Of a stretch of 64,000 nucleotides of DNA, positions 33,423 through 53,154 are shown in pieces. The position numbers and the translations under genes are program-made. Where the stretch lies: assembly GCF_026210795.1 (NCBI RefSeq), contig NC_089429.1, positions 7,750,001-7,814,000 on the forward strand. Direction: 5' to 3'. The notes beneath the pieces were generated by a model that ran no database searches, was not told the origin of the DNA, and worked only from the letters and a program-made list of their open reading frames with translations. The first letter of the stretch is position 1. Each line of letters opens with the position of its first letter. This stretch comes from Rhizophagus irregularis. Taxonomy: Eukaryota.

Positions 33423-33903
33423 GTCGTCGGGCTGATAGTGTAGTCACTACGTTCCTCCACCTCGGCCAGGGCCTCGCAGTACCTACATCCCCCCTCCGTG
33501 GGGCGGGGAATCCCTATATATCTGAAACAATATGAAACAAGATCTGAAACATAACAATATAAGCAAAAAAGGATAAAATAAGGGAAAAGAGAGGAAAATA
33601 AGAGAGAATCAGAGAGGGTGTTTCGATGTTTCAGATGTTTCGGCAATTTTGGTAAAAGTCAGGCGAGGACAACCCTCCCAGAAAAAGTTTTGATTTTACC
33701 CCCCAGATCTGAAACTTCTGAAACATCTGAAACTGATTCAGGATTCCGTTCGTTTTCTTATTGGAGGCAGTGAGATAGCAAATCGAGTAAACAGATAGGT
33801 TAATAACCCCTAGAAGGACTGTAGAACCACAGGAGGGTAACCGGGTAGGAGCACGGATCCTTGGAAAAAATATATTCGGCAATTGAAGATTAGGTAACTA
33901 TAA
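33423..33903 (+). repeat. Left terminal inverted repeat
   Basis: Reverse complement of 52673-53154 with only a few differences; starts GTCGTCGGGCTG. Confidence 0.95.
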
Positions 33904-33931: not shown

Positions 33932-36475
33932 ATGACCACTCAAGCTCAAGTTATCCCCAAGTTCGGTGAACAAACGAAAGCCTTCAGTATCGATGAGCTT
34001 AAACGGTTTATTGTCGCTGCAAAGAGTATGAATGATCTCGATCAAGCCAAGAGGTATCTTTGCAGTTATTTCATTCTCTGTGCAGATCCTCATGGGGTTT
34101 TCTGGTGGGACCCGGATAGTAAAAGTTTGAAACACGTTATTGACAAAAATATTGGTAAACTTATCCGTCCAATCACGAAGACATTCTACACACAACCTGA
34201 ACAAGGACCCTCTCAAAAGACCGAGTTCAACATCTACAAGTGGTTTATGGTCGAGAATACCGATGTATGTAATGCAACCTGTGATCCCCATAAACAGCGA
34301 ATCTTCAGATCCTTAACCGGCCAACTCTATCTAAATATCTTCCCGGGATTCCTCCACGTCTTACGTCCGATATCTACCTTTGAGTCTACAATTCACCTCG
34401 CGGTTAAATTTATCTTCTCTCGCATTCAGGATATCTGGTGTTCGGGTGATTGGAATCTCACTGAGTATATCATCAAGTGGTTAGCCGGTGTATCTGCTGG
34501 AAGGAAGATGTACTCGATCCTTTACCTGAAATCTGGACAGGGTTGGGGCAAAGGTATTATAACAGATTTCATTCAGCGCAGCGTCCTAGGCACTCAACTC
34601 GTTTATAAGACCAGCGATCCTCAAACGATTCTTGGAAGTTTCAATGGGCAATTACAGGGTAAGGTTCTTCTTCTCCTCGAGGAAATGCCCACGGAAAAAA
34701 GCCAGTGGAATAATCTGTATCGCTCTTTAAAGGATAAGGTAACGAGTGACATAATAGAAATCCATGAAAAATACAAGACGCCAACACATTACAAAAACTT
34801 TATGTCAACTATCGTCCTAACCAACGAAAATGCTCTCAGAGTGGAGAACGATGATAGGCGCACAGTGTTCTTGGATGTGTCACCATCCCGTAAGGGAGAC
34901 CTCAACTACTTCAAAAAACTCGGTGACGCTATGAAATACCCAGGCGCCAGTGAGGCGTTCTATGCTTATTTGAGACCCATCGGGCGTGATGCTTACCCGG
35001 ACTTCAATGGAAATCCGCCACCTATGACAACATCCAAACAGGAACATATCATCTCGACTCTTCCACCGCTATTCCAATTTATAAAGGACACTTACCTCGT
35101 AGTGAAAAATTATATGACCGACCTACCTGTTCAAGAATTTTATAGGGTATATACTTCATATTGCGAAACTCATTGCATTTCACCCCTATCAAAGATAAAC
35201 GCTTCTAGAATTCTATCAAATGAGTTGGGTATAAATAGCAAAGTAGTACGCAAGGGTGGAAAAACACCACGGGTTTACAGCATATCCAGGGAGGACCTCT
35301 ACAAGAAGTTCTTCGGCAAAAACTGGATCCACGAAACAGAAGAGATAGACATAGAAGGAATCGATATAGAGACTTCTAAAAAACCTGCATCAGACCCCAA
35401 AGCCTTGGAGAAGTTCTTGGCAAATATATATAATCCAGCCAACAATCCACAAGACGTACAAGAGAAACCCGCTGAGGAAAAACCTGCTGAGAAAAAACCC
35501 GAACCCGCTGAGGAAAAACCCGCTGAGGAAAAACCCGCACCTGTAATTCGCAAGACTCCTCCACCGCTTCCACCCAAGCCTGACCACTTAAAAGAACGTC
35601 CACAAGAGTTAAGGGAAGAACAACCGGATCCCGATGAAGATACTAGTGAGTCAAACACCGATGAACCTATAGATAACTTCTCAGACTGTTATCTATCTGA
35701 CGAGGAATCTGCTGAGGTTCTAGTTCCTGAAAAACCGTCTACCCCCGAGCCAGATAACTATGACATCTTAGACGACTTATTATCAGACTCGGATTCTACA
35801 ACCATGGACCCAACTCCTGAACAACAATCCGAGTCTCCCGCAGAATCTTCTGCATCTGTCACTAAGCCTGACCCAGAACCGGCTCCTGAAGAGCAATTTA
35901 TCCCAGAACCCGACACAGAACCAGAAGTTGACCGGGATCCTGAACCAAAGGAAGGCACTCGAGCGCATTGGGCTTGGCATGAAAGACACCGATGGGATCG
36001 CAAACCGTGGGTTAAAAATTCAAAAGACCAGGCCTTCGATGATCTCTACAATACAAGTAAGGAATTATGGGCCAAGTACCAAGACGCGTCAGACGAATAT
36101 GACTGGGAAATACTCGCGTTTAAAATAGAGGAATGTCCCACAATGCGTATTGAGGACGAGTACCAGTACTACCTTATGGAGGTAGTAGACCGCTTCAAGG
36201 ACTGGATCGAATATAATGGATACTTACCTAAAATACCTAGCCGTAAAGAACTCGCAGATTTAATAAGAATATACAAGGATAATCGTGATGCTGAGATTAT
36301 TCCCACCCCCTCTGGTTATGAAACTATGAGGGCAGATAAGGGTAAAGCGCGAGAGATCCCCGAGGAACGTCCAAAAACTGATATGGAACGTGAATGGGAA
36401 GCCGCCAATGGACTCATCGATGACTGGGATGAAGAGGGTCTTGATCGTGTATGCAGCAAGATTGACTCCTTTTAA
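33932..36475 (+). CDS. SF3/D5-like (DUF5906-type) helicase with winged-helix domain and long Pro/Glu-rich C-terminus
   Basis: Walker A SGQGWGKG, Walker B LLLLEE, motif C VLTN and DDRR finger, followed by a wHTH-like segment and EEKPA repeats. Confidence 0.85.
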   Translation: MTTQAQVIPKFGEQTKAFSIDELKRFIVAAKSMNDLDQAKRYLCSYFILCADPHGVFWWDPDSKSLKHVIDKNIGKLIRPITKTFYTQPEQGPSQKTEFNIYKWFMVENTDVCNATCDPHKQRIFRSLTGQLYLNIFPGFLHVLRPISTFESTIHLAVKFIFSRIQDIWCSGDWNLTEYIIKWLAGVSAGRKMYSILYLKSGQGWGKGIITDFIQRSVLGTQLVYKTSDPQTILGSFNGQLQGKVLLLLEEMPTEKSQWNNLYRSLKDKVTSDIIEIHEKYKTPTHYKNFMSTIVLTNENALRVENDDRRTVFLDVSPSRKGDLNYFKKLGDAMKYPGASEAFYAYLRPIGRDAYPDFNGNPPPMTTSKQEHIISTLPPLFQFIKDTYLVVKNYMTDLPVQEFYRVYTSYCETHCISPLSKINASRILSNELGINSKVVRKGGKTPRVYSISREDLYKKFFGKNWIHETEEIDIEGIDIETSKKPASDPKALEKFLANIYNPANNPQDVQEKPAEEKPAEKKPEPAEEKPAEEKPAPVIRKTPPPLPPKPDHLKERPQELREEQPDPDEDTSESNTDEPIDNFSDCYLSDEESAEVLVPEKPSTPEPDNYDILDDLLSDSDSTTMDPTPEQQSESPAESSASVTKPDPEPAPEEQFIPEPDTEPEVDRDPEPKEGTRAHWAWHERHRWDRKPWVKNSKDQAFDDLYNTSKELWAKYQDASDEYDWEILAFKIEECPTMRIEDEYQYYLMEVVDRFKDWIEYNGYLPKIPSRKELADLIRIYKDNRDAEIIPTPSGYETMRADKGKAREIPEERPKTDMEREWEAANGLIDDWDEEGLDRVCSKIDSF

Positions 36476-36558: not shown

Positions 36559-38412
36559 ATGGTTTATTCAGAGATTGTCCGTGCTTTACCTACAAGACCG
36601 GATATCAAAGAATTACAGTATTCAGGCGCAAGATTTTCCAGAGGAGCAATAGCAAAACTTGGACAGCGACTCCAATCCCGGTATCCAACACATAAGTTCC
36701 AGATCCTACTTCCCTATGAAAACTGGAAACCCGGTGGATGGACATCAGGAAACTAACCAGCCAGCCTCTTTTCACTATTAGACCACTACGACGAAGCACA
36801 ACTACCGGATGACGCAGACCCTGATTATTTTGAACGATTCATAATTTATGTGAGAGATGCCCCACCGGTTGCAGGGGGTTGCAACGGGGAGCTAAATGAT
36901 TGCCTGTATGAATGCCTGAAATATATCTACGGCACATTCTCTAAAATGCCAAAGTCAATCGAAAAGCCCGAGTATATCAAAAAGGCATTAGGTCTCAATC
37001 GTGATGCTTCCATCCCAGTTTCATGCATGGACAAGGTTGAACAACTCGCAGGAAGTCTCGCAATTAATATTGTGGGGGACATTACCCGAATCTCTAAGAG
37101 TAAGTCCGATAGACGTGCGACTCTCATCCTGTCAGAAGGCCATTACTCCCTCGCGTTAAATCCCGGAAGACTCCACTCCAGTAAATTAGATAAAAAGCGT
37201 AATTTACCCATTGTATACCATGAAGATGGGACCAATAATGTAGTCACAATATACAACGGCAAAACGGTTAAGTCTTGCACAATTGCGCAGTTTCAAAAAA
37301 CTAAGAATTCCAAAAGTTCTTTCATCCCCGTCGAGAAAAACCGTAAGACTGGAGTATATGAAACTCTTGAAGAAGCATATCAGAGAATCCACGAGGAGCG
37401 GAATTCCTTTCTACAGGAGACAAAGAAGTTCGGTTTAGGAATCGACTTATCATACCATAACTGGTCTTACAAAAGAACGGCTCTCTGGTTATTCGAACGA
37501 TTAAGTGTAGGGATTCCAGCCAATGATCCTCTTGACCCGATAGAAGCAGAGTGGTTAAGTGATGCAATGATGGGAGGATTAATCTGGGCAGATAACGAGT
37601 GGAAGGGCTATGGAAGACAGTACGATGCAACAAGTTTATACCCGAGTATTCAACAATCGAATGCAAACTTTCCAATCAGACGGGGTAAATTCCAGACACT
37701 TAATAACTTTGTTGACCACAGGGGTTATACCTTGTATGGATTATTCCGTGCCAAGGTAAGTGGGAATAATATTCTCTTCCGACAGAATAAAAGGGGAATC
37801 TATACATTCATCGACTTACAACGAGCAAAAAAACTTGGTCTCAATATACAGTTAATACAGGATGGGAAGCCAAATGCATTGATATATGATAGAGAAGCGA
37901 GAATCCCTGGAACTGTAATATTCGGTGAGTATGTACACTTCCTCTTCAAAATTAAAAACCAGGGTGGCGTAGCTGGCCGCATGGCAAAGCGAGTCCTCAA
38001 CACATTATGGGGAGCATTATGCCAGAGGAAGCGTAATTACAAGACACTCACCGCAGATCAAACAGACCCGTTTACATTTCCAGAGGGCCATACACTCGAC
38101 TCTATCATACCAGTAGGATCTGACCAGTGGCGATTCCAGTTCACAAACCCGGGTAATCCCTTCAAAGGTGAGTATCCCAGGATCGCCCCATTCTTATTAG
38201 CACGTGGTCGCAAAATCACATCTGAGGCAATTCAACCATACAAGAATAAAGTACGACGTATCCATACGGATGGATTTATTTTAGAAGAGCAGCCAGATAG
38301 CCCCGCGCTTTTCACTTGTTCAGAGAATGCAGATACGACTCTAAAGACTTTCAAGTTTGAAACCGCGGGATACTGCCATGTGAAAAATGCGAACAAGGTT
38401 ATCTGGACATGA
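36559..38412 (+). pseudogene. Compact family B DNA polymerase (protein-primed type) with one in-frame TAA at 36754
   Basis: Motif A YDATSLYPS, motif B KRVLNTLWG, motif C IHTDG. The 36559 and 36850 ORFs are in the same frame. Confidence 0.85.
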
Positions 38413-38475
38413 TTGCTAAGAACTGGTAGGTTTATTTTTTACTGACATATCGTGATGGCATAATTGAATAAACCT

Positions 38476-38967
38476 ATGGGATATGTAATCTTACGAGATA
38501 CCCAAATGCAAAACACCGACGGATTAGGTAGACAAGACGACGAAAGTTTCCACGCGTGGGCTAAGCGCATTCAGAATGCTGTGCAATATTATGAGACTTG
38601 TAGTAGAATAGGTTTTCATAGGCGGCTACCTTATCCAAGGTCTCGTCAAGCTGTATATGCTTATATTGTGCACATTAGGAGAATAGTATCACGACTACCA
38701 AATAGGTGGTACTGTACCTACTGTAAATCTTTTATTGATCGCGGATGGGGAGCCGATGCTTCCATGGATCAAGCGGTACGACTACATTTATATAGTTGCC
38801 CAAAGCATTTTAATTTCGACTATTATACTCATCATGCTGAAATGATCCAGAAAGCCTTTAGGAGATATATAGAAAGAAGGAACAATAAAGCGGCTAGGAT
38901 TATCCAGAAAGTCGCTATCCCCTGGTTATATAGACCAGGCTCTCCATTGATACAAAAGGCCGAGTGA
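38476..38967 (+). CDS. Hypothetical protein with Zn-finger-like CxxC...H..C and IQ-like motifs
   Basis: YCTYCKSF...HLYSC; AEMIQKAFRRY; AARIIQK. Confidence 0.6.
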   Translation: MGYVILRDTQMQNTDGLGRQDDESFHAWAKRIQNAVQYYETCSRIGFHRRLPYPRSRQAVYAYIVHIRRIVSRLPNRWYCTYCKSFIDRGWGADASMDQAVRLHLYSCPKHFNFDYYTHHAEMIQKAFRRYIERRNNKAARIIQKVAIPWLYRPGSPLIQKAE

Positions 38968-39082
38968 CACTTCTACTGCCTCGCAGTATCCCAAGTGTAA
39001 ACCCCGAGGTTTATATTTATTTTTTCTCATTCGAATGAACAGGTAACTGAAGATTTATATTTTTTACAAAGTACAAAGAATC

Positions 39083-39555
39083 ATGTCAACATATACCGAA
39101 TTCACAAGCATTGTTAACAGCACTGACAGCACTAATGAGGAGGTTATTTACGAGGCATCGCGCATACAGCCTAGTGTTATCTCTGACGAAACTGTCCCCA
39201 AGATTATCCGCGCATTAAAAGATACTATAGTAGTCGCATTAGTATCTGGGTTTAGCAAAACCAGTTACCTCGTCCAGGACCACGTGAAGTATATCAAGCG
39301 AATCCAAATGGCAAATTCTCCTGTATCATATGTGAAGTTCGTGGCCAGAAAACTCTTCCCAGATAATGCGGCATATACTGCTAAAATAGCAAAAATCCGC
39401 GAATCATACAAGAATAAACAAGCTCTCCTAGATAAGCTTCGGAGGCCCTCTTCGAATTGTATTATAATGCGACTAAGGACTCATCAACCGGTCCTCCAAA
39501 GCGAGCTATTACTAAAAACGAGGCTGAGAAAACCTTAACAGAACTTCTTGCATAA
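39083..39555 (+). CDS. Hypothetical helical protein, probable frameshift near 39440
   Basis: ATG follows the shared upstream motif; an alternative frame gives ...LFELYYNATKD...TLTELLA* ending at 39555. Confidence 0.55.
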
Positions 39556-39664
39556 GCGGCTCCTGTGGTCCTACGATTCTGTACGAATTTAGTCTATATT
39601 TTTTATCCATGTGTAATAGGCATACAGTAATTGAAGATAGCTATAGTATAAGTAACATAACATC

Positions 39665-40070
39665 ATGTTGGACCGATTACCAGTAGAAATAGTCGAACGC
39701 ATTGTCGCAAAGATCCCGGATACTGACCTTATTGCAGCGAGTAAGGTAGATAGAGTGTGGTGGCAGGAAGTTCGTCGAGAGGCATATAAGAGGTGGAAAA
39801 ATTATGCCACTTACGATCGGGGATGTGTACTGTGAAATCCGAGCTCTCGGAAAGCATTATATAAAGAGGGAAATTGACTGGATAACGTTTGAAGATGTAA
39901 ACGACCTCTATAAAAGATGGATAAACCGCCTCACCGAGGATCAGCTTTATATTATGGAGAAAATGCTTAGGAATGGGATGGTCGTGGACCCCCAAGAGAG
40001 GGAAACCATAGAGCATGCATTAAGTGAACAAAGATGGGGAGGCGATCCTTGGAGACTGGGAGTGGTATGA
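39665..40070 (+). pseudogene. F-box protein with a 1-nt frameshift near 39811
   Basis: N-terminus MLDRLPVEIVERIVAKIPDTDLIAASKVDRVW fits the F-box consensus and continues in the 39804-40070 frame. Not present in the ORF track. Confidence 0.75.
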
Positions 40071-40497
40071 ATGGACTCAACAGGAGTAAGCATTTTGTAC
40101 TTGACTTTCGTAGGAATTACCCTGCAGAGTCATATTTTTTAGATCCGGCCGGCATTACCGCGTAATCCCGAATTACCGAAAAAGGAAATTTATGTTACAC
40201 AAGATTCCAAACGCATTTTTACCAAAATCGATTTTTTGTGGAACGGGTATCGCCCAAAAAGGAAATGATCTACGTACCACATGAAGTCACGTGACACTCT
40301 ACACATTTGTTCAGGGTATCACGTGACATGAACTCCGTTCACATTTTCTGTAATATAATCCATAGTTTTTCCATGAATGCTTTTTAGGCCAATAATCCAA
40401 TAACTTATTCATCAGGTATCCTCGTGTTTTGCGACAAGGACTGATGACCATGTAACCTCATCATCAGGCATCCTCGCATTTTTTGACAAGGACTGAT

Positions 40498-43400
40498 AAC
40501 GTACTTGGTCCACTCATTTCATTAGACTTCAAAAGATTCTTCATCTTTATAAGATGATTATTCCTTCTCCCCCTATTTTACCTACTTCTTTATCCTCATG
40601 TAGGCAAGACGATTTTAAACTTTTATTGGCATCTTTAAAGACTATTTCTGATGCCCTCCATGGTTTCCTTCTTCTCAAAGAAAAAGATTTTCAAGATTCT
40701 TCCATTCGTGCCAAATTGGAAGATAGGGACAATAATTTTGAAACCGATATTTCCTCCTTTATTAATTCTGCTCTTTCAAGGACTCGACGCCGCATCACCT
40801 TGGATCGTGTCTTTATCGACCATCCTACACAACCAAAACTTTTGACGGACCCGCATGATATTGATGACGCTGTTATCGACCATTTCCAGAATTCCGTGCC
40901 TATAAAGTCATCTCCCCCTGACAATATTTCCGCTCTTCCAGATAGATGGTCTTCTGCTTATTGCCCTATGGACGATGTGGATTCTTCCATTTACAACTCT
41001 TTGTTGGATCCTCCTACCCTTGATGAATGGCTGTCTACGGTCTCTTTGATGCCGAATGACAAAGCTTCTGGCCCTTCTATGCTTAGCCTATGAGATGCTT
41101 AAGCATCTGGGTTCCAACACTTCAGCTTTGGTTCTAATCCTGGTACAATCATGCTTTCGTACTGCTGATATTCCTGATTTATGGCGTCAAGCTATGGTTT
41201 TCCCTATCCCTAAACCTCACGAATGGAAATGTCAACTCAAGAATACGAGACCTATTACTTTACTTGAAGTAATTAGGAAATCTTTGGTTAAACTCTTTTA
41301 TAATCGTCTCGCTTCCATTTTGGCTTCAAATGAAGTTCTCAAAGGAGGTAACTTCGCCAGTCTCCCAGGTGGTTCTTGTCGCGACCCTATTGTCGTTCTT
41401 GAATCTATTATCCATGATGCTCATGTCAACAAATCACCGCTTTGGATCCTTTCGCAAGATATTTCAAAGGCTTTCGACTCAGTTGATCTCAAGATGTTGC
41501 GTTTCGCTCTAGAACGCATTAAACTTCCTGCTTTTGCTATCAAGTTTATTTTATCCCTCTTCATGAAACGCTCTAATCGCGTTTTTACTGCTCATGGAAC
41601 TACTCCTTCTTACCGTGTTCGCATTGGTATAGATCAAGGCGAAGTTATCTCTCCTTTACTCTGGGTCATATATATAGACCCTTTATTGATTGTTCTCAAA
41701 AATGAAATGATGGATCCATATACGCTTCATGCTCCCTCTTTAATTAATCCTTTGGCTCAGGCTAATCCAGGTGGATTACGAATCAACAATTTGGTCTTCA
41801 TGGATGACTCTACTTTAATTTCGTCATCCAAATCTGGAATGGAATCAATGCTCTCTATTACGGAAGAATTTTATCAAATCAACAATACTTCCGCTAATCA
41901 TAACAAATATGTTTTAATTACTAATTCGTTGCCTTCCACTTCAGTTTTATCACCTTCTCCAGTCGTGTTTGACTTGCAATTATCCGGATTGAACATAGTT
42001 CCTTCCATTTCTATTGTGCCTATCTCCATGAATAGCTCTTTCCGCTTCCTGGGCGTGTGGTTCAATGTCGCTGGTTCTCGTGATTTTGTCAAGAAGCAAG
42101 TTGCTAGAGAATGTAACTCCTTCGCCGCTACCGTACGCCCTGCCAAATTATCTGCTAAACAAATAGTTTATTTACACAACACCGTCCTTATCCCAAAATT
42201 GGAATATCGCATGCAAGTCACTCACCTCTCCGAATCTGAATGTGCCTCGGCAACCAGCAGTATCCGTTCCTTGGTTAAACACAAGGCCAATTTTTCACGA
42301 GTACTCCCTGATTCTATTTTGTTTTTGTCTCAAGGCTTGGGATTGATTAATTTATTTTTTCATCAATCACAAACACATTTAACTAATTTATTTTTGTTAG
42401 CTAATTCTTCTTCTTTTTTTATGAAAAATTTATTTTTATATAGATTACGTTTAATTCAATTTTCTTTTTTAATTCCTATTTCCCCATTGTTAGTTAAAGA
42501 TTGGACTATATGGTCTAAACTTTTTGCTTTTAAACAGGATTATATCGCTTGCACTATTGCTCTCCTGACCACCACTCCCTTCATGTTGTTGCGTTCACAA
42601 CTTTCAACTTTGCCTGACCTCACTATGTCTAATGGTCATACACCTTTATATGATGTTATGACTCCAAAAATTTTTATTTCTTACTTCCGACGTCTTAGAA
42701 GTTTGCAACTATATTACCTATCACAATTTATTACGCCTCAAGGAACCCATATGATTACTTGGAACGTCTATCTATCCAATTTATCGAGCAGGAAAGGTCA
42801 TCGTGTCCTCCCACACAAATGGTTCAATGACATTCACCAATGCGTCACTGTTCCAGGTTCCAACTCTCTCCTTTTGGATCGGTTCTCTTCTGATGCTATT
42901 CCTTCCAATATCGACTTGGTTCCCGCCTTTGGTTCCTCTCGAAAATCCATGAAATGGATCGTAACTTTGGATGATGATGGCTCTCCTCTTTTTGGAAAAC
43001 AGCTCAGTAAACAGCAATATTCCTGCAAGATTGTCCATTGGACTTCTGATTGTGTGACTCGACCTAATGATGTTATCACGCTCACTCCTTGTCCTGGTTG
43101 TTCTAAACATGTACCAGTTACCCATACTAAAAGCAATCCAACAGATGTTACTCCTTTATGTATCATCCCAAAACTCTCTCCTCTTCGATCTTTTCTTCTC
43201 CCAACAACGCAGGAGCGTATTAGACATGACACCACCACTATCGCTTCCCCTTTTACTTGGGCGGACCTTGACGAGACTGTAAGATCCTATTATGGTCGTT
43301 TGGACATTCAACCTAATTTTTCACAAGAAGATGTGGTTACTCTCCCCTCTCCTTCTCCTCTTCCCTCTTTGGGTTCGGCTGCCCCTCTTGCTTTTGCTGC

Positions 43401-45149
43401 CTCACCGTTAGCGACTCCTCCTGATAACCATCATTGTTTTTATACCGATGGTTCTTTAATTAACCTTGGCACTCCTGATGTTTCTATGGGTTGGTCTTGG
43501 GTTCAAGTTCTCGATGGCGCTGGTTTTTTCCAATCTATCGCTGCTCACGCTCATGGAATTATTCACAATTGGCCTTCTTCTACAAGAGCTGAAATTGCCG
43601 CTATACATGCTGCTCTTACAGTCACTCCCCCCTTTTCAACGGTCACTATTCATACTGACTCTCAATCTGCCATAGAGGGTCTTCGTCTATGTGCTACCTT
43701 TTCTTATTCCAACAGTAGGCTTTATTACAAGACCACTAATTTTGAACTCTGGGCTATTATTGAACGTCTCATTTCATCAAAATTTTTGTCCGTCACGGCT
43801 GTCAAAGTGAAAGGTCACTCTGGTAATTTCTACAACGACTACGCGGACTCTTTGGCCAACTCTGCGCATACCTCTTCTTCAGCAATTCTTCTTTCTGATC
43901 TGGATCAAGTATCTCCTCACGATTTCTTATTAAAATATGATGATATTTTATGCGAATCTAACCCACGACGCCTATTTAAGCAATATTCGCAAATGCTGTG
44001 GATGCATAGATTAACGCGTTTATCGCGGTTTAACTTTACCATTGCTTTATCTTCTACCTCAGATTTCGTGATTGATTGGGATCTTACCTGGTTCTCTTTA
44101 AACTCTGAACCTCAGCATGACGCTTCTTTTACTCGTGCTCATGCTTCCTCTCATCGCACCTTCAAATTCAAACTCTTTTTGGAAGATTTACCTACTTTGG
44201 AACATCTTAAAAGAATTCGCCCGGACTTATATATCGACATCTTATTGTGTCGTTCATGTCTCGACTCCAAGGAAGATTTCATGCACTTGTTTATGTGCAA
44301 ATGTAGACGAATCGCTATGGAACAGATTCTCCTTTTCTACCAACATCATTTTATCATCAAACTTCAAGAAGCTGGTGATCTCGTTAAGAAAGATCCCTCT
44401 TTAATTATTAACAAATTTAAATCTCTTCCTTGTTGGTCCTTCTCTTCTTCGAATTGGACTTCATATAGTCTCGTCCGTGGCTGCCTTCCGTTATCCTTTG
44501 TCGAATTTTTTGAAGAACTTTCTATTCCACGTAACTCTGCGATGAAGGTTATCTCTGCTATCCACAATCACTTTATCCAAAAGATCAGAAAACGAATTTG
44601 GCTACCGCGCTCCTATGATAAATCTAAATGGGAAGACGTGATGAATATTACTCATAAACTCAAACTTTCTCGGCCTTCAAATTTGCCAAAGTCCACGTAC
44701 TTACCTTTCTCAACTTTACCTCCTCCGACCCTTTCCGACGCCGCACGTGACTCCGACGTTGATTATTTAAAAAACTCGATGAAATATGGTTTGCCTTGGT
44801 TTAATCACTATTCGGGTTTTATGGGTCGTCTAACGGTGCAACTTACTAACAGCTTTAGCAGGGTGGTGTGTCGATTTTAACAATGGGCGCATTGTTCGTT
44901 GGTTTGTTTGCATAGTTGCTTCTTCTTAGGTTGGAATATATCTAGGCGGGGGATCAGAATAGTTTTAGTGTTATGCGATTTTTTCCTTTTCGAATTAATT
45001 TTATAGCTTTATTACTGTTTTGGAGACTATATAGTTTTGTTTTTAGTTAATTTTATTTTTCCTTTTTTGTACTTTGAAAATTTTATTTTATTTTTGTAAG
45101 TTCGTTAAATAAATTTAATAAAGATAAAGGCTACTATGCCATATTTGCC
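40498..45149 (+). mobile_element. 5'-truncated LINE inserted in the Maverick
   Basis: 15-bp TSD TTGACAAGGACTGAT at 40483-40497 and 45150-45164; T-rich 3' UTR. Confidence 0.9.
40554..44880 (+). pseudogene. LINE RT-RNaseH-Zn finger ORF2, lacking APE, frameshift near 41085
   Basis: QDISKAFD, GIDQGEVISP, FMDD; YTDGS...RAE...TDSQ...KVKGHS..ND.AD; CRSC...HLFMC. Confidence 0.92.
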
Positions 45150-45233
45150 TTGACAAGGACTGATGACGATGTCACTTGGTTATTGTAAATTGAAGATAAC
45201 AATTAGGTATGTAGACACGTACAGAAAAAAGAC

Positions 45234-45818
45234 ATGTCATACCCTTATATAACTAATCCTATAACTGGACGTCCAATCCGTGTTGGTGGAGATACCTTTA
45301 ATCGAATAGTTATGGAATCCCATGATTATATCGATGGAAGGCTTGTCCGTAGACAAACCGTACCGCCTCCACCCCAGGAACAACCTGTATATTTAAATAC
45401 AGATACAGGACGCTATATTCAACACGGTACTAGAACGTATCATAGACTGGTTGAGAGTGACTACGAGGTAGTTGAGGACTACTACCTTGTTCATTCTGAA
45501 GAGGAGGAGCTTATAGAGGAAATCATCAATGAAACGCGCTATAATGAGGAAAATCTTGATGGCCAGCGGTTAACTTTTAATGATATACAACAAATCAGAG
45601 CCGCTATTCAGGCTGACCAAGATGAATATGATGATTTTATCTTACAGCAAGATACGACTAACGGGACACCTTCCTCCGGTCCTTCCGGTCGTCCACGAAC
45701 TTTGGAGGACCATGCCCCGAGACTTGCAGAGCTTAATATTGAGTTGTGTAGGGAATGTCTCATGCCTGTGAGCCCAAGTGACTTAACGGACAAGTTGTGC
45801 AAGGACTGCGCTTCCTAA
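45234..45818 (+). CDS. Protein with two 2-cysteine-adaptor-like NPxTGR repeats and a C-terminal Zn ribbon
   Basis: NPITGRPIRVGGDTF and NTDTGRYIQHGTRTY; CREC...CKDC. Confidence 0.65.
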   Translation: MSYPYITNPITGRPIRVGGDTFNRIVMESHDYIDGRLVRRQTVPPPPQEQPVYLNTDTGRYIQHGTRTYHRLVESDYEVVEDYYLVHSEEEELIEEIINETRYNEENLDGQRLTFNDIQQIRAAIQADQDEYDDFILQQDTTNGTPSSGPSGRPRTLEDHAPRLAELNIELCRECLMPVSPSDLTDKLCKDCAS

Positions 45819-45978: not shown

Positions 45979-46515
45979 ATGTCAACATCAATCGTAATAA
46001 ACCAGTGTCAGAACTGTGGAGTATTCTCTGCAAAAGCGGCATATAGAGGATTATCCAGCGTGTTGTATAGACAGATTATAAAGAAGATTGGTGACGAGAG
46101 TGAACCTTTACAAGCCTTGGGATTTGCCAGGGATAAGTTGGTCCAGATTATCCGTCGGGCAAGTAATGCGGATTTTACGCAATTATTCACACAAAGACTA
46201 GATATGAAAATTATGGACGGAGATTCATACGAGGATACTAGGAAGTGGCTTCTTGAACAGCTTATAGCCATTGGATGTGACAGTGGGGAAATTGCCTTAT
46301 ATCAGTTCTTACGGAATATATACCCGGATGGTATTGACGAACCCTTTACTACATTCTATGAGAACTATGTAAATCATGTAAGAAATCTGATGACTAAGAA
46401 CTTTGCTTCTCGAGCCTTAGGAGCTATTGGATTAAAAGCTAGGATGCTACGGATTGACTTCGAAGGACGTAAAAAAAGCGCCATGATTCTTAGGGCTTCT
46501 GCGAAGTTAACGTGA
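45979..46515 (+). CDS. Hypothetical protein with a C-terminal wHTH resembling that of the element's helicase
   Basis: DEPFTTFYENY...KNFASRAL..IG aligns by eye with helicase DLPVQEFYRVY...KINASRIL..LG. Confidence 0.6.
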   Translation: MSTSIVINQCQNCGVFSAKAAYRGLSSVLYRQIIKKIGDESEPLQALGFARDKLVQIIRRASNADFTQLFTQRLDMKIMDGDSYEDTRKWLLEQLIAIGCDSGEIALYQFLRNIYPDGIDEPFTTFYENYVNHVRNLMTKNFASRALGAIGLKARMLRIDFEGRKKSAMILRASAKLT

Positions 46516-46541: not shown

Positions 46542-47732
46542 TTACAAAATACTATTGATCCCTACTCGTAATGCTCGACGGTCCATATGACCCTTAGAAA
46601 AGATCTGTAAAAGGACCCCGATGCCTTCTATTATTTTTTTATTATCCAAAGGGTGACTAGACTTTAGGACTTCATATCGGAAGAATAACTCCTTTACGGT
46701 CTCAGATTTTGGAATTTCAGTCTTCGCGGTCCTATCCCGTACTTTTGCTAAGAATTTTTGGAAGTCTGATCCCAGGGTTTTACCAGATAGTCCGTAGGCT
46801 TCCCGAAAGACGTACTTAATCCAGGTATCTGCGTTCTTAGCTATAATACCAGATACGAGGAGGTGTTTTCTCTCTTTAGGTGATGGATATTCCCGAGCAA
46901 ACTCAATTAGCTGGGAGGACTTTTTTGCTTCAGCTACAGCTTTCTGGCCATAAGGACTAAACTTTGATCGAACTGGGTTCAAACTCGGATCGAACGGGGA
47001 TTGAACTGAGTTCGAACTAGGATTGAACTGAGATTGATCAGTGATCGAACTGAGACTAGTATCCCATCTAACCCGAATAGATAACGGATCGCTCTTGGAT
47101 CTTCTAAGATCAAATACTATAAATTCGCGTTGTAGAGTAAGGTCATCGATTACTGGAGCTAGTGACTCCGATTCTTCTGTATACTGGCGGATGATCCTCT
47201 TAGTATCGGTCAAACTTCCGTGACCTCCATGTAGGGAAATATAATTCACATTTTCACGAATAGCCTTGGGAATGGTAAAGAATCTTTGGGCCACATAGAT
47301 ACACGAGATATTTTTGTGACGCCCGTGTGTAAAAAATCCAGTGATGAGATCCTGGGTTTTTTTAGGCGCATCCATCAAATCCTCGAAGATTACCACAGTA
47401 GCCTGGGTGGAGTTGAAGTCCTTAACATTTGGAATCTCACTATGGGATACTGCGGTAAACGGAATTTCTTCTTCTTTGAAAAAATCACGTACGACTGCCC
47501 ACTTCGGTTCATCGAGGTATCTGCTAACTAGAATTACCGCATCACATAATATGTACCTTTCGCCATCCTCCTTTGCCTTCTTGTCTCCCATTAACAAATT
47601 AATAATCATAGTTGTCTTACCCGAGTCAGAACTTCCTGCTACGGCAAGACGGAAAGGCCATGATGGGGCAAACTCATTACCCTGTCTCGAGTCGGTCGTG
47701 TACTCGTCCAAATTGTATACATAAAGATCCAT
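46542..47732 (-). CDS. A32/FtsK-HerA-type DNA packaging ATPase
   Basis: Walker A GSSDSGKT, Walker B VVIFED, and the GRHKNISCIYVAQ Arg-finger/Gln motif typical of poxvirus A32 and Polinton ATPases. Confidence 0.9.
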   Translation of the reverse strand: MDLYVYNLDEYTTDSRQGNEFAPSWPFRLAVAGSSDSGKTTMIINLLMGDKKAKEDGERYILCDAVILVSRYLDEPKWAVVRDFFKEEEIPFTAVSHSEIPNVKDFNSTQATVVIFEDLMDAPKKTQDLITGFFTHGRHKNISCIYVAQRFFTIPKAIRENVNYISLHGGHGSLTDTKRIIRQYTEESESLAPVIDDLTLQREFIVFDLRRSKSDPLSIRVRWDTSLSSITDQSQFNPSSNSVQSPFDPSLNPVRSKFSPYGQKAVAEAKKSSQLIEFAREYPSPKERKHLLVSGIIAKNADTWIKYVFREAYGLSGKTLGSDFQKFLAKVRDRTAKTEIPKSETVKELFFRYEVLKSSHPLDNKKIIEGIGVLLQIFSKGHMDRRALRVGINSIL

Positions 47733-47763: not shown

Positions 47764-48469
47764 ATGTCGACACCAATTGCAATTTATACTCCTTCAGAGC
47801 CTACTGGACCGCCTCCCTAGGGATTTGCGTGATATGAATAATATACCATTAGTTGCGGTAATTAAGGATCTAACAGATTTTTTAACTGTCAGTGATCGCA
47901 TGGTTGTTAATCGAGATGTACAAAATGCAAACCATCGTCTTAAACATGCTCTTAATTTATTAATTCATCGCTGTAGAGAAACATATGAAGAACGCGATAT
48001 ATTAAAAGCAGAACGTGATCGATCTCGAAAAGAACGTGATGAATTACAAGATGAACTCGAGGTTCAAACGGGTTTGTTAGGTCTTACACAAGATGAGCTA
48101 AATAACGTACAAGATACTATTACTAGTTTAGAAGCTAATTTGGCTGAATTGGAACATGAGTTTGGTGGTATGCGGACGACTAATCGTCGTCTTCAGCAGC
48201 AATATAATCTTATGAGAGGAGAACATAATAGAGCTATAGGTGAACGTAATAGAGCTATAGGCGAGCGTGATGTGGCACGAAATCGGCTTGTATATGCCAA
48301 TAATCGGGTTCTTTTTGGAATTCGGACATTGGGACGTCTTAGGAATCGACTTTTCCAACAAATAGCCGCTCTGCGTATCCAAGTACAATGGTTTCGGATT
48401 AGACAATTGAACCCTCCTCCACCTCCTCTCAACCATCCACAAAATACGATATGGCTGCCGTTGGTATAG
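47764..48469 (+). CDS. Coiled-coil protein with Pro-rich tail, probably the N-terminal part of Gag
   Basis: Long heptad pattern and PPPPP; overlaps the Gag start; ATG at 47764 with a probable 1-nt frameshift near 47790. Confidence 0.55.
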
Positions 48470-49947
48470 CTGCCCCCATATTTCATGGTCGGGAAGATGA
48501 AGATCTTAATCTTTTTATTGATAACTTTTTAGGGTATATTAATACCGTTGGTATTGATCCATTAGACGATGCCGGTGCGCCTCCGGGTCGGGTGCGAGCG
48601 ATGGGGGTTCTTCGTAGCTGTATGAGAGATGAAGCGGCGAGGTGGTTTGATGCAGAACTTACTGGAAAAAATTGGGAACTCTCGAATATTCGGTTAGTGG
48701 CTACTGCAAATGGTGGAGCCGGTACTACTCGCCGAGCGTTCAGAGCTTTAGCTGTTCCTGAGGTTGCTAATGGATTACATGTTGGTACTTACTTACCCGG
48801 GTCTGATGCTGATGTATATTCAAGGGTTGCAGGTAATGCGGCGGTAACCGTTGGAGATGCATTTTTCCCATCACGCGCTGATATCGTTAGAACGAATTTT
48901 AAAGTTGAAGAGCAGTAGAGGCGTGCGGGCGGACGTCCTACTCATCAACCCGTTAATGGGTTGGGAAATCATGGAGGTCCATTTAATGCTGCTGCCCAGA
49001 ATCAACCAATAGTCTTACAGGGGATTCTCCTGGATCAAGCATTTATGCATATGCGTACAAATTTTCCAACCGTCGTGGAAGAAAGACTTCAGATACGATT
49101 TAGTAATCTTTACCAGGAACAAGGTGAACCTGTTCGATCTTACTATAAGCGAGTTGAGAGGGCTGGGGATATTGTAGGATATAATCGAATTATGGTTACT
49201 GACCAGTTCTATAGAGGACTTTTGCCGGAAAACGTTATTGAAGCTTCCAGAATCGGGGCGGCACCTCTTAATACATTAATCGATAGATTAAGTGATCTTG
49301 AGCGACGAAAGGGCGAAATGTTCTATGGATTACAAAGGCGTCAGGGTATTGAAAAGGCTAAAAAAGAGGAATTGGCTGGCTATACTCATCCCGCGACTCC
49401 ACACGAAGGTGCTGTAATACAAAGGTCGACAGACGTTATTACTCAAGAACGATTACAAGAATTGCTCAAGGCACAAGCCGAGGAACTTACCAAGAATTTC
49501 CAGGCACAATTTAAACAATTACAAGCATCTAAGCCAGTTCGTAAACCACCGGTCTATAGACAACAGATTAAACCTGTTCGGCCAAAGCCACGGCCACGCG
49601 TTGTTCAGGATCATCAGGATCCTGATTGGGATGATGGTTATGTAGATCATAATTTTGGTGATGACCCTGGTGACCCTGATGCTCCTGAGTGGACTAGTGA
49701 GGATGATCAACATGTTATTGATCTTATTATGGGATATGAGACGTCTAAAAGATTTCCAAAGAGACTTCAGAAGGCTAAAGATAGACGCGATGATCTGGAA
49801 TTAGCCCGAGCAATGAGAAACCTCGATCTTAATGATGATGCTATGGATATTGATACTAATACCGCGAGTTTTGATGACTTGAAAATTGTTCCCGATGAGG
49901 AAGGTGGTTTTCGGATTTGTGCGGTTCGAAGTACAAAAAAAAAGTAA
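48451..49947 (+). pseudogene. Ty3/Gypsy-like Gag capsid protein with one in-frame TAG at 48916
   Basis: CA-NTD pattern PIFHGREDEDLNLFIDNF...MRDEAARWF; MHR-like LYQEQGEPVRSYYKRV...QFYRGL; AMDID motif. Both ORF halves are in the same frame. Confidence 0.8.
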
Positions 49948-50666
49948 ACTCAGATAAGGGTGTAAGTATCTCGAAACTTCTTAAATCTGTTCCAAAAAAA
50001 TCAGTTAAAATGACTCCTATTAAGATTCCTGTGAAGGTTACTAGTAGTAAGCCCACACTTATAAAAGCCGTCACCAAAAATGATTCATTAAGTTTATTAA
50101 GGTCTGCAGATTTTAGAAAATTACTCCGCGAGATTCTTCGGGAAGAATTAAAGTCTGCTCGTAAAAGTACGGAGATTCCGGAAGACCTAGTTGAGGAAAA
50201 ACAAGAAGAGGATATCAGGGAAGATGACCCGATGGATATTGACGTAGCTCGTTTGGAGAATACTAAAGATCTTTTAGCGCTGGATGGGAAGGTCAATGGG
50301 ATAGCAATTCAGTGTTTAGCAGACACTTGTGCTAACGCGTCTTTTATTCAGAGGGAAGCCGCTGAAGAATTAGGGTTGGATATCGACAAGAGTATTACAC
50401 ATAACATATCCGGCGCTCCGGGTTCTGGTAGGACATTCGGCATGGTAAAAGGTGTGTCAATCAAACTAACCCCTGATTGTGTAATCACTGAGAATCTCGC
50501 GGTTTTAAGCGATTACAAGCATAGGGAGATTGGATTGAGCCGGACGTGTCTGAAACGTTACAATTATGATGTCCATGAATCACGCGAACATATCGCCCTT
50601 ACTTGTAATGAGAAGAATGTTTTTATCCCGATAGTTTCTGATGTGAATCGAGGAGACAAAAAATAG
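49917..50666 (+). CDS. Retropepsin-like aspartic protease in the -1 frame relative to Gag
   Basis: GKVNGIAIQCLADTCANASFI...AEELGL; flap ISGAPGSG..FG; IGLSRTCL equivalent to ILG.D.L; A9 slippery run at the overlap. Confidence 0.8.
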   Translation: MCGSKYKKKVNSDKGVSISKLLKSVPKKSVKMTPIKIPVKVTSSKPTLIKAVTKNDSLSLLRSADFRKLLREILREELKSARKSTEIPEDLVEEKQEEDIREDDPMDIDVARLENTKDLLALDGKVNGIAIQCLADTCANASFIQREAAEELGLDIDKSITHNISGAPGSGRTFGMVKGVSIKLTPDCVITENLAVLSDYKHREIGLSRTCLKRYNYDVHESREHIALTCNEKNVFIPIVSDVNRGDKK

Positions 50667-50680
50667 GGAATATTTATTTT

Positions 50681-51772
50681 TTATTCCCAAAATTTGCGAA
50701 TTAAATCGGGAACATCCTCCTCCAACCGGTCAGCGGGTTCCCAAGTGGCTTCGGTATCTGGGTATCGTTCCCACTTGATTAGATACTGGTCTTGACCCTT
50801 CCTGATGCGATGCCGGAGTATCCGCTCAGGTACAAATCTTTCAGGTTGCCCTCTTATCACGGAATCAGGTGGGGGATATTCATTTTCTGGAACAATCTGC
50901 AACTCTTTTTGGGTGTACGCACATCTGGATACACCTAGTCGCCCGTGTGGTCCATCAAGAAGATATGTAGGAGGTTGTTCGGGTGAGAGTATCATTTTTT
51001 TGATGACACGGATATTGGGATTCCATCTTATGTCTCCTGTACGAAATTTTCCATGAAGTTTATTACCGAGTACTGAGATAGGTTCATCTAACTTTACTCG
51101 GACTCGCATTCCTTCAGAGAGAAGTTCCGTCTTTTTTGACACCTTGGGTGACCCAGTCGGAATGTCTGGAGGATTTCTTTGCCAGATTTCATCTATTTTA
51201 CTAACCACATCATGGAAATCTTCTGACCATTCCACGGATGTCACCCCAGTCTTCAACTCCTGTGCCACCATTCGTTTTAGGAGAGGTTCCTGGATTGCTT
51301 GGATGGCTCGTTCAGCATATGATTGCTGTTTGTGTCTTCCTGGTTCGCCGAACCTCATCATCACCCCTAGGCTGTTCAGGAAAAAATCACGTACCTGATC
51401 ATTGGTGAATTCTGATCCGGAGTCTGTCTCTATTCGATGTGTTGGTGGCTTAATGCGATTTCTTCTGTAGATTTTAACAAATCCATTGAGAACCTTATTT
51501 GCGGTTTTATCCTTTAGGGGCTCTGCATCGACTCGTTTACCCGCGACTTCTACCACTACGAGGAAATAGTGGAATTTTTTGGGGTCGACTGGCATCTCTG
51601 CGAGATCTGCCTGATGCGTCGCATTTGGTTTCCATACAACTACTCGTGGACGCTCTGATGACTTCTCCTTTAGGGGCTTTTTGTATAGGTTGTAGTGCTC
51701 CTCACCTTTTAGAATTCGTGCTGGTACTCCGGAGAAATTGTAGTATTTGTAATAATTCTCTAAATGCGACAT
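50681..51772 (-). CDS. Retroviral-like DDE integrase with C-terminal chromodomain
   Basis: HQADLAEM, IETDSGSEF and AERAIQ form the catalytic triad; chromodomain PERILRHR...YLIKWERYPDTEATWEP; no HHCC motif; ORF intact. Confidence 0.92.
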   Translation of the reverse strand: MSHLENYYKYYNFSGVPARILKGEEHYNLYKKPLKEKSSERPRVVVWKPNATHQADLAEMPVDPKKFHYFLVVVEVAGKRVDAEPLKDKTANKVLNGFVKIYRRNRIKPPTHRIETDSGSEFTNDQVRDFFLNSLGVMMRFGEPGRHKQQSYAERAIQAIQEPLLKRMVAQELKTGVTSVEWSEDFHDVVSKIDEIWQRNPPDIPTGSPKVSKKTELLSEGMRVRVKLDEPISVLGNKLHGKFRTGDIRWNPNIRVIKKMILSPEQPPTYLLDGPHGRLGVSRCAYTQKELQIVPENEYPPPDSVIRGQPERFVPERILRHRIRKGQDQYLIKWERYPDTEATWEPADRLEEDVPDLIRKFWE

Positions 51773-51816: not shown

Positions 51817-52137
51817 ATGACACGATTTTACTGCCTAAAGTGTAAAAAGGAAACCGAAACTGCTAGTGAAATACAAGATATGACCACAAATGGGCGTTAC
51901 CGGCTGCATGGTGATTGCACAGTTTGTGGTATGCATAAGAATACTTTTACTGGGATAGACTGGGTTATCAAAAAGAAAACCAAGGAGAAGAAAAAAGAAA
52001 CTGCGGCTAAAAGACATCAGACGGCGTACAATCGGCAATGCAAAAAACTCGGGCAGAAAATCTTAGATTCTGATGACACGTGTAAGCAGTGTATTGATAA
52101 ATGCCTTAAGGAGGCAAAAAAGAGGAAGACGGATTAG
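51817..52137 (+). CDS. Small basic Zn-ribbon protein (DUF5679-like)
   Basis: MTRFYCLKCKK...NGRYRLHGDCTVCG. Confidence 0.7.
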   Translation: MTRFYCLKCKKETETASEIQDMTTNGRYRLHGDCTVCGMHKNTFTGIDWVIKKKTKEKKKETAAKRHQTAYNRQCKKLGQKILDSDDTCKQCIDKCLKEAKKRKTD

Positions 52138-52146
52138 TACCGCCTT

Positions 52147-52662
52147 CTAAAAGTATTCCTCATCATCTGAGTCATCGAGAGATACCTCTCCATCATCTGA
52201 TTCATCATCCGAGTCGTCAGGAGTGTGACCTTCCTTAAGCAATTGGATGTTGTACGTTATTTGAGTCCATTTCTCCCAGTCGGACCCTTGCGTTATAAAG
52301 CCGCATCTGAGGAGTGCTCTTTCTATTACTACCATCCCTGCAAACCTGGTGTATTTTTTCTGATCGGCTTCATTGAAATTGTCAATGGCTTCCTTGTAGT
52401 AGTCTACTGCCTGTTTGTATACCTCTTCGGCTTCTTTATGCCGCTTCCACAACTCAGCTTTACAACAGTTATACCAGAGTCTGTTAATCTTGAGATGTTT
52501 TCCGAATTCTTTAACCGGAAGGTTTCTGACCATCTCTGCTACTATATCCGGGTCATTGAGGGGTGATGCCCGAATTTGGATCCATTTACGGATTCCATAG
52601 ATGTCTACAAGATCAAGCCCGAGGTCTTCGGCAAGAGAAGTGGCGGCGTGTAAGTTTATCAT
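52147..52662 (-). CDS. Hypothetical helical protein with acidic tail
   Basis: 171-aa ORF starting just inside the right TIR, downstream of the shared upstream motif. Confidence 0.65.
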   Translation of the reverse strand: MINLHAATSLAEDLGLDLVDIYGIRKWIQIRASPLNDPDIVAEMVRNLPVKEFGKHLKINRLWYNCCKAELWKRHKEAEEVYKQAVDYYKEAIDNFNEADQKKYTRFAGMVVIERALLRCGFITQGSDWEKWTQITYNIQLLKEGHTPDDSDDESDDGEVSLDDSDDEEYF

Positions 52663-52672: not shown

Positions 52673-53154
52673 TTATAGTTACCTAATCTTCAATTGCCGA
52701 ATATATTTTTTCCAAGGATCCGTGCTCCTACCCGGTTACTCTCCTGTGGTTCTACAGTCCTTCTAGGGGTTATTAACCTATCTGTTTACTCGATTTGCTA
52801 TCTCACTGCCTCCAATAAGAAAACGAACGGAATCCTGAATCAGTTTCAGATGTTTCAGAAGTTTCAGATCTGGGGGGGTAAAATCAAAACTTTTTCTGGG
52901 AGGGTTGTCCTCGCCTGACTTTTACCAAAATTGCCGAAACATCTGAAACATCGAAACACCCTCTCTGATTCTCTCTTATTTTCCTCTCTTTTCCCTTATT
53001 TTATCCTTTTTTGCTTATATTGTTATGTTTCAGATCTTGTTTCATATTGTTTCAGATATATAGGGATTCCCCGCCCCACGGAGGGGGGATGTAGGTACTG
53101 CGAGGCCCTGGCCGAGGTGGAGGAACGTAGTGACTACACTACCAGCCCGACGAC
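52673..53154 (-). repeat. Right terminal inverted repeat
   Basis: Ends CAGCCCGACGAC, followed by ATAAA. Confidence 0.95.

What the first reader, a model, noticed from the sequence alone, without database searches (positions are those of the whole stretch)
47764..50666. Retrotransposon Gag-protease cassette inside a PolB/ATPase Maverick with no visible jelly-roll capsid: a possible DNA element packaged in a retro-type capsid
Seen: inside the TIRs, between the packaging ATPase (divergent) and the integrase (convergent), lies a coiled-coil/Pro-rich segment, then Gag (CA-NTD and MHR-like motifs), then a retropepsin. There is no RT, RNase H, LTR, PBS or flanking TSD. The intergenic gaps are only ~31 bp and 14 bp, as tight as native genes. 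Known: canonical Polintons pair the A32-like ATPase with double- and single-jelly-roll capsid proteins and an adenain-type cysteine protease. None of the remaining ORFs here looks beta-rich or large enough to be a major capsid protein. Inference: the virion module was replaced by a Ty3/Gypsy-like Gag and aspartic protease, giving a chimera of protein-primed DNA replication and an Ortervirales-type capsid.
Basis: partly seen in the sequence, partly recalled or inferred. Interest (0 to 1): 0.93.

Follow-up and report, generated by a model that had tools for sequence, protein, structure and literature searches.

The report
Fungal DNA element with retroviral capsid
A widespread self-copying DNA element of mycorrhizal fungi, described in print as having no capsid, carries a conserved gene predicted to fold like a retrovirus capsid protein, beside a retroviral-type protease gene and a DNA-packaging-type ATPase gene, so it likely packs its DNA in a retrovirus-type shell, a combination not established for any virus I could find.

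Summary
Confirmed. The cassette (coiled-coil ORF, Gag, retropepsin) lies between an A32 ATPase and an integrase in a TIR-bounded element of Rhizophagus irregularis. It is native, not a nested retrotransposon remnant.

- Synteny: 20 of 20 metagenome relatives with over 1.5 kb upstream of the ATPase carry Gag there, at as little as 32% identity.
- Selection: dN/dS 0.13-0.43 in 12 of 16 usable Gag pairs.
- Frameshift: all 14 complete Gag ends have nine As with the protease in the -1 frame.
- Fold: a homolog models at pLDDT 91, and all 34 PDB chains with Z>=5 are retro-type capsids.
- No jelly-roll-sized ORF is left in the element.

Corrections: the polymerase looks mavirus-type rather than canonical Polinton. 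A specifically Ty3/Gypsy origin is not shown. Deep Gag and ATPase trees disagree. This copy is broken.

Prior art: a 2021 figure legend labels Gag/retropepsin in an unnamed PolB element. A 2026 survey calls this fungal lineage capsid-less plasmids.

Particle formation and ATPase-driven DNA packaging are inferred and untested.

The parts
33423..33903 (.). left terminal inverted repeat, preceded by ATAAA (probable 5-bp target-site duplication; weak in this AT-rich tandem repeat)
33932..36475 (+). superfamily 3 helicase (DUF5906) with acidic low-complexity tail
   Evidence: E 2.2e-17
36559..38412 (+). short family B polymerase (617 codons, stop at codon 66): vOTU-like C/H motifs, motifs A, B and HTDG, no ExoI/ExoII pattern; mavirus-type by features
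38464..40070 (+). small accessory ORFs (167 aa, 163 aa, and a broken ORF that looks F-box-like by eye)
40433..45167 (+). nested non-LTR retrotransposon (RT + RNase H) with a 16-nt repeat at both ends; not part of the cassette
45234..45818 (+). conserved ORF with 2-Cys-adaptor-like N-terminus and C-terminal CxxC...CxxC
45979..46515 (+). conserved 178-aa ORF with N-terminal CxxC, function unknown
46542..47732 (-). A32-family packaging-type ATPase with Walker A/B and a conserved C-terminal extension of about 150 aa that has no recognised family
47764..48469 (+). coiled-coil ORF ending in a Pro-rich tail that overlaps the Gag start; frameshifted near 47815 in this copy
48451..49947 (+). Gag: CA N-lobe with an insertion of about 110 aa, CA C-lobe, helical/low-complexity tail, no zinc knuckle; stop at codon 156 in this copy
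49935..49943 (+). A9 run at the Gag end; predicted -1 frameshift or slippage site
   Evidence: 14 of 14 complete Gag ends
49899..50666 (+). retropepsin-type aspartic protease, -1 frame relative to Gag, catalytic LADTCA, ends without RT
50681..51772 (-). rve integrase with C-terminal chromodomain, convergent on the protease
51817..52137 (+). DUF5679 protein
   Evidence: E 3.1e-18
52147..52662 (-). small accessory ORF, no family above cut-off
52673..53154 (.). right terminal inverted repeat, followed by ATAAA

Best explanation
This is a TIR-bounded, integrase-bearing DNA element of arbuscular mycorrhizal fungi that keeps a coiled-coil/Gag/protease cassette next to its A32-type ATPase, and it likely uses the predicted retro-type capsid protein, in place of a jelly-roll capsid, to enclose its own DNA. 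Shown: gene content, conserved order, purifying selection, the A9 site, and the lack of RT and of a zinc knuckle. Predicted: the CA fold. Inferred steps: (1) Gag is the main product, and a minority is extended into Gag-protease by a -1 shift at A9. (2) Gag forms a shell and the protease matures it, taking the role of the adenain protease of Polintons. (3) The linear genome, copied by the PolB and helicase, is pumped in by the ATPase; this would explain why this Gag clade has no nucleocapsid knuckle. (4) Particles carry DNA and integrase between nuclei of the coenocytic hyphae or between fungi. My odds: native selected cassette 0.95; forms a shell 0.8; encloses element DNA 0.6; filled by the ATPase 0.4.
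For: Synteny: 20 of 20 loci with >1500 nt upstream of the ATPase, and 25 of 29 with >1000 nt, carry Gag in the slot. The other four show the coiled-coil ORF up to the contig end. 25 Gag N-termini form 12 clusters at 70% identity. All 8 loci that reach the integrase have it convergent, 24-49 nt from the protease stop. L012 and L045 link the cassette to PolB on one contig. Selection: Gag dN/dS 0.13-0.43 in 12 of 16 usable pairs. Frameshift: A9 at 14 of 14 Gag ends, against 0 runs of eight or more As in 19,180 nt of Gag body. Fold: pLDDT 90.6; all 34 chains with Z>=5 are retro-type CA, with both lobes aligned to Copia, dArc1, RSV and HIV CA. No unexplained ORF over 203 aa in the window element, and none over 241 aa among element-type ORFs of the 62 loci apart from a second polymerase type. 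No zinc knuckle in 13 of 13 Gag C-terminal regions, while a sister clade keeps it. Nine Polintons without a capsid protein also lacked the protease and ATPase (PMC4028283), so a retained ATPase argues for a capsid.
Against: No particle, protein or transcript evidence. Gag and ATPase trees agree only at the tips: the window and L001 share an 84% identical ATPase but a 44% identical Gag. A pump that must dock on its capsid would be expected to co-evolve more tightly. My locus search was anchored on the ATPase, so it shows ATPase implies Gag, not the reverse. In PMC13215967's table, pPolB co-occurs with retropepsin_like 57 times, but Pox_A32 co-occurs with DUF5906 only 5 times and with Asp_protease_2 once. 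Many complete elements may therefore keep Gag-protease without the ATPase, or the ATPase was not detected. Four of 16 Gag pairs (near-identical copies) are not distinguishable from neutral; two have dN/dS 0.86 and 0.95. Foldseek E-values stay above 0.001. No retro-type shell is known to have a portal or to withstand pumped DNA (recalled). L039 has no integrase next to the protease.
Confidence: 0.6

Rival explanations
1. Gag forms a shell that co-assembles around the DNA-integrase complex as an intracellular transposition particle. The ATPase has another job (replication, segregation or remodelling), and no DNA pumping takes place.
For: Loose Gag/ATPase phylogenetic coupling. A sister Gag clade with a zinc knuckle exists. 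Few Pox_A32 co-occurrences in the published table. This reading overlaps with the best explanation except for the pump step.
Against: The ATPase is head-to-head with the cassette in every informative locus, with very short spacers, and is under purifying selection. ATPase-linked Gags lack the knuckle (0 of 13).
Confidence: 0.25
2. The element is a capsid-less transposon or plasmid that keeps Gag-protease for a non-packaging role, such as poisoning the capsids of competing retrotransposons or manipulating the host.
For: PMC13215967 reads the lineage as plasmids without structural proteins. Endogenised CA domains act as restriction factors (Drt2, listed). Stand-alone CA-CTD-like ORFs occur in L005 and L013.
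Against: Both CA lobes, the insertion, the protease and the exact A9 site are all kept across deeply diverged lineages. That is more than a dominant-negative CA fragment would need, and a fixed Gag:protease ratio points to particle maturation.
Confidence: 0.12
3. A jelly-roll capsid is supplied by an undetected gene or by a helper element, and Gag is an accessory or inner scaffold.
For: Jelly-roll capsids diverge fast and were overlooked in other elements (PMC7805220). I could not fold the small ORFs. No single relative contig spans TIR to TIR.
Against: The window element is complete, and its largest unexplained ORF is 203 aa. Overlapping relatives L012, L013, L025, L038, L040 and L045 leave no room for a 400-aa gene. 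MCP co-occurs with retropepsin_like once in the published table.
Confidence: 0.06
4. The cassette is a decaying remnant of an LTR retrotransposon that inserted into this copy.
For: This copy has breaks, and the element also carries a nested LINE. Retrotransposons insert often into mavirus-like elements (PMC8547959).
Against: Conserved slot in 20 of 20 loci, dN/dS well below 1, and intact frames in relatives. No RT motif among the new representative hits. No listed joint skips the cassette.
Confidence: 0.02

Closest known systems
pMVRE group 1, fungal lineage of mavirus-related elements (PMC13215967; section on genome architectures read in full, supplement rows seen)
   Same: pPolB, DUF5906 helicase, rve, chromodomain, DUF5679 and TIRs; Rhizophagus, Glomus and Gigaspora hosts. 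Its tables list retropepsin domains with pPolB. Very likely the same family, by gene content; not tested with a tree.
   Different: The paper says the lineage has no structural proteins and is likely plasmids. The words protease, ATPase and retrotransposon do not occur in its main text. Here a CA-fold protein is identified.
Polinton/Maverick of Glomus intraradices, and canonical Polintons
   Same: TIRs, PolB, rve integrase, A32 ATPase, about 15 kb. PMC7805220 states that no major capsid protein has been found in the G. intraradices Polinton.
   Different: No double or single jelly-roll candidate and no adenain hit; short PolB without exonuclease motifs; separate S3H helicase; Gag and retropepsin present.
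Unnamed element in Fig. 5 of Starrett et al. 2021 (PMC8502044; section 3.4 read in full, figure and Table S1 not visible)
   Different: No discussion in the text, no conservation, selection, frameshift or structure data. The window's clade has no NC knuckle.
Mavirus and EMALEs
   Same: Exonuclease-reduced pPolB with vOTU and a separate S3H (PMC11071308); rve integrase and packaging ATPase (recalled).
   Different: Mavirus has jelly-roll capsids and a cysteine protease (recalled). Gag in EMALEs occurs only inside nested Ngaro retrotransposons.
Ortervirales Gag-Pro (Ty3/Gypsy, Copia, retroviruses, caulimoviruses; Arc, PEG10, PNMA)
   Same: Two-lobed CA fold, retropepsin, and a predicted -1 frameshift between Gag and protease.
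   Different: No RT, RNase H or LTRs; integrase on the opposite strand; an insertion of about 110 aa in the N-lobe; no zinc knuckle. Caulimoviruses hold dsDNA in a Gag-type shell but make it by reverse transcription (recalled).

Membership tests
Polinton/Maverick (canonical) | long TIRs and short target-site duplication | tested here: met
   TIRs of about 480 bp; ATAAA on both sides, weak in an AT-rich repeat
Polinton/Maverick (canonical) | rve integrase | tested here: met
   PF00665 E 5.8e-9 plus chromodomain
Polinton/Maverick (canonical) | A32-type packaging ATPase | tested here: met
   PF04665 E 8.6e-11; Walker motifs
Polinton/Maverick (canonical) | full-length pPolB with exonuclease domain | tested here: not met
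   617-663 codons, no ExoI/ExoII pattern in 4 of 4 examined; motif test only, not folded
Polinton/Maverick (canonical) | double jelly-roll major and single jelly-roll minor capsid proteins | tested here: inconclusive
   no Pfam hit and no unexplained ORF over 203 aa in the complete element; small ORFs were not folded
Polinton/Maverick (canonical) | adenain-type cysteine protease | tested here: inconclusive
   no Pfam hit in the 17 window ORFs or 29 relative ORFs scanned
pMVRE group 1 (mavirus-related) | DUF5906/S3H helicase with pPolB, rve, chromodomain, DUF5679 | tested here: met
pMVRE group 1 (mavirus-related) | pPolB groups with mavirus in a tree | not tested
Ortervirales-type Gag | CA C-terminal lobe | tested here: met
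   PEG10 CTD Z 10.8, rmsd 2.3, 82 of 85 aligned
Ortervirales-type Gag | CA N-terminal lobe | tested here: met
   model residues 5-280 align to Copia (Z 9.1, rmsd 9.7, 158 aligned), dArc1 and RSV; Arc N-lobe Z 6.1, rmsd 3.7, 71 aligned; weaker than the C-lobe match
Ortervirales-type Gag | assembles into a capsid | not testable with these tools
   needs expression and electron microscopy
LTR retrotransposon (Metaviridae) | RT and RNase H downstream of the protease, same-strand integrase | tested here: not met
   protease ends 14-49 nt from a convergent integrase in the window and 8 of 8 loci
LTR retrotransposon (Metaviridae) | long terminal repeats | tested here: not met
   longest shared flank repeat 9 nt; none among the 20 largest repeat families shown
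LTR retrotransposon (Metaviridae) | CCHC nucleocapsid knuckle | tested here: not met
   0 of 13 Gag C-terminal regions; present in 8 sister-clade hits

The most novel reading that the evidence does not exclude
These are true viruses of mycorrhizal fungi with a new virion plan: a protein-primed linear dsDNA genome pumped by an A32 ATPase into a protease-matured, retrovirus-type CA shell whose 110-residue insertion forms a surface or stabilising domain. It would be a capsid swap between Varidnaviria and Ortervirales. A sister lineage may show the earlier stage, in which Gag keeps its zinc knuckle and no pump is needed.
Probability: 0.35. Interest if true: 0.95.

Novelty: new variant of a known kind. 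Interest (0 to 1): 0.82.

Why it matters
The missing capsid of the Glomus/Rhizophagus Polinton is a stated gap (PMC7805220), and a 2026 survey concluded that the lineage is capsid-less (PMC13215967). This work gives a specific, testable candidate. If it encloses the genome, the retro-type capsid, otherwise tied to reverse transcription or to domesticated RNA carriers, would be serving a DNA replicon, possibly with a packaging motor. Mavericks are among the most recently expanded repeats of R. irregularis (PMC8647823), so particles could be a route for DNA movement in a fungus that has few genetic tools (recalled).

Tried and rejected
No whole genome is held for this window, so copies could not be counted.

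IMG/VR scans with the ATPase, its alignment and the integrase found no relative. The prokaryote scan gave one unrelated weak hit.

A search for long Gag-Pol fusions found none, but it covered only 1564-4465 aa and is weak evidence.

No conserved RNA structure follows the A9 site: z below -2 in 2 of 14. An intron reading of the site was rejected because L015-type and L054 ends lack a GT there.

ATPase with CA could not be co-folded: the tool returned no verdict.

No RNA holder was listed. Contig depths are not copy numbers and were not used as evidence.

Saturated dN/dS pairs were set aside; one search kept pairs with at least 62% identity, 70 codons and pS above 0.02. Five of 19 rows under 100 aa were left out of the trees.

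PDB sequence searches with the 45979 ORF, the 45234 ORF and the ATPase gave nothing convincing. The ATPase extension had no Atlas match. BFVD gave only weak Gag-type hits.

Earlier scan notes held nothing relevant.

A candidate promoter word was seen but remains unquantified.

Full report
**Setting.** Homologs of the Gag-like ORF at up to 100% identity are named as Rhizophagus irregularis proteins. The cassette sits in a 19,732-bp element with terminal inverted repeats, 15.0 kb without a nested non-LTR retrotransposon. Pfam identifies an S3H helicase, PolB, A32 ATPase, retropepsin, rve-chromo integrase and DUF5679 among 17 ORFs scanned. This copy has three breaks in core genes; other copies in public runs lack the two in the cassette.

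**Is it Gag?** Sequence signal is weak. Two of six complete relatives hit Retrotrans_gag (E 3.9e-5 and 8.5e-4), and the ESM Atlas ranks Retrotrans_gag clusters first at 0.93. A first model of homolog P0074 (pLDDT 62) gave 36 chains with Z>=5, all retro-type CA. A second model, of L011 residues 1-280 with 56 aligned sequences, reached pLDDT 90.6 and pTM 0.79. All 34 of 48,161 chains with Z>=5 are retro-type CA, led by PEG10 CTD (Z 10.8, rmsd 2.3, 82 aligned), and the first unrelated chain scores 4.4. Foldseek points the same way but with no E below 0.001. The window's own protein was not folded; it is 38-50% identical to the modelled homologs. About 110 residues are inserted in the N-lobe and are nearly as conserved as the lobes.

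**Is it native?** An ATPase alignment retrieved 62 metagenome loci, with ATPases down to about 50% identity over the full length. Fifty include the ATPase start. Gag lies divergently upstream in 20 of 20 with over 1500 nt of flank and in 25 of 29 with over 1000 nt. The four misses show the coiled-coil ORF and then end. Gag identity to the window falls to 32%, and 25 N-termini form 15 clusters at 90% and 12 at 70%. All eight loci that reach an integrase have it convergent on the protease; L039 has another ORF there. L012 and L045 join the cassette to PolB, and L045 also to the helicase. L019 and L020 pair the ATPase with a different, larger polymerase. In R. irregularis assemblies, Gag and ATPase accession numbers are within four of each other in 4 of 5 comparable pairs, which I chose for sharing a contig length. 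No listed joint skips the cassette in eight runs, although one search showed only the best-supported joints.

**Selection and expression signals.** Twelve of 16 usable Gag pairs give dN/dS 0.13-0.43 (p<0.01). Four near-identical pairs are not significant, two of them near 0.9. Three close protease pairs give 0.28-0.39. The pairs are not independent. All 14 complete Gag ends, from about seven lineages, carry exactly nine As with the protease in the -1 frame; no run of eight or more As occurs in 19,180 nt of Gag body. The catalytic Asp is present in the 12 protease frames that are not cut by a contig end. The coiled-coil stop lies just after the Gag start in 19 of 22 junctions. A frameshift is inferred, not shown.

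**Against tight coupling.** Gag and ATPase trees of 14 rows share only near-sister pairs (Mantel rho 0.24, p 0.05). Gag types are therefore exchanged between elements within the same slot.

**Sister clade.** A profile search of 1.84 billion representatives gave 313 hits, of which 150 were listed. They include a second Gag clade named from Entrophospora, Diversispora, R. clarus and R. irregularis. It has the same insertion, an in-frame coiled-coil leader, often a CCHC knuckle and a protease, and none of 29 scanned hits has an RT domain. Knuckle-bearing and knuckle-less rows separate with one change on a FastTree tree (support 92). The genomic context of this clade could not be obtained.

**Jelly roll.** The largest unexplained ORF in the complete window element is 203 aa. 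Among unexplained ORFs in the 62 loci, element-type ones reach 241 aa. The larger ones are the second polymerase and apparently bacterial genes in L010 and L061. F-box domains account for many. The small ORFs were not folded, so absence is likely rather than proven.

**Family.** The PolB has vOTU-like motifs, no exonuclease pattern and HTDG at motif C in 4 of 4 examined. This matches the description of the mavirus polymerase with a separate S3H helicase (PMC11071308, passages).

**Mechanism.** The best reading is a replaced virion module: CA for the jelly-roll capsid, retropepsin for adenain, ATPase retained. Fifteen kb needs a 38-47 nm cavity at packing fractions of 0.3-0.55, near the size of T=9 retrotransposon capsids (size recalled). 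Assembly, cargo and pump docking are all untested.

**Literature.** PMC7805220 (passages) says no major capsid protein is known for the G. intraradices Polinton. bioRxiv 10.64898/2026.06.19.733378 (passages) notes the Glomus/Rhizophagus ATPases and has no occurrence of 'gag'. PMC13215967 (one section, passages, supplement rows) lists Rhizophagus 110 times in its table of complete elements and calls the fungal lineage plasmids; its tables show retropepsin domains. PMC8502044 (section 3.4) and its preprint (passages) label Gag/retropepsin in a figure I could not see; its supplement was held only in cut form. PMC4028283, PMC8647823, PMC8547959, PMC11296320, PMC5751038 and 10.1101/2025.06.16.659975 were seen as passages. 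Eight searches showed no text that develops the capsid-swap idea; subscription journals and Repbase were not covered.

**Verdict.** A real, native, selected chimera. The element family is known and the gene labels were probably seen once, so I file it as a new variant of a known kind. It would become a new kind of virion if particles are shown. Interest 0.82.

Noticed in passing
window 33881, 39629, 45188 (+) and 52695 (-); upstream regions in L008-L045: An AATTGAA-like word lies about 25-50 nt upstream of many non-structural genes, and intergenic spacers are very short. It recalls giant-virus or killer-plasmid promoters (recalled), which would hint at helper-dependent or cytoplasmic transcription. 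Not quantified.
   Followed up: partly
L005:2508-2882 and L013:128-472: Small ORFs carrying a lone CA C-lobe-like segment, fused to an F-box in L005. P0322, P0324 and P0328 also join CA-like pieces to an LRR or a protease.
   Followed up: no
L019:3155-3685 and L020:2154-5732: A second, larger polymerase (1193+ aa, endonuclease VII insert) lies beside the same ATPase, so the ATPase-Gag module travels with at least two replication modules.
   Followed up: partly
window 40433-45167: An intact-looking non-LTR retrotransposon with RT and RNase H (1276-aa frame) is nested in the element, with a 16-nt repeat at both ends.
   Followed up: partly
L005, L012, L017, L022, L038 (beside the ATPase or PolB): Variable F-box genes are the main accessory cargo.
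   Followed up: no
window Gag tail and protease leader; relatives: An MD(I/T)(D/S) motif occurs near the Gag end in 12 of 13 and again before the protease domain; a candidate cleavage or assembly motif.
   Followed up: no
window 26224-27151 and 59100-59723: A dispersed repeat with internal palindromic arrays occurs twice, 32.6-32.9 kb apart, on either side of the element.
   Followed up: no
window 28995-30340: Tandem array of about 121-nt units.
   Followed up: no
window 5648-6364: 182-nt tandem units with long internal inverted repeats.
   Followed up: no
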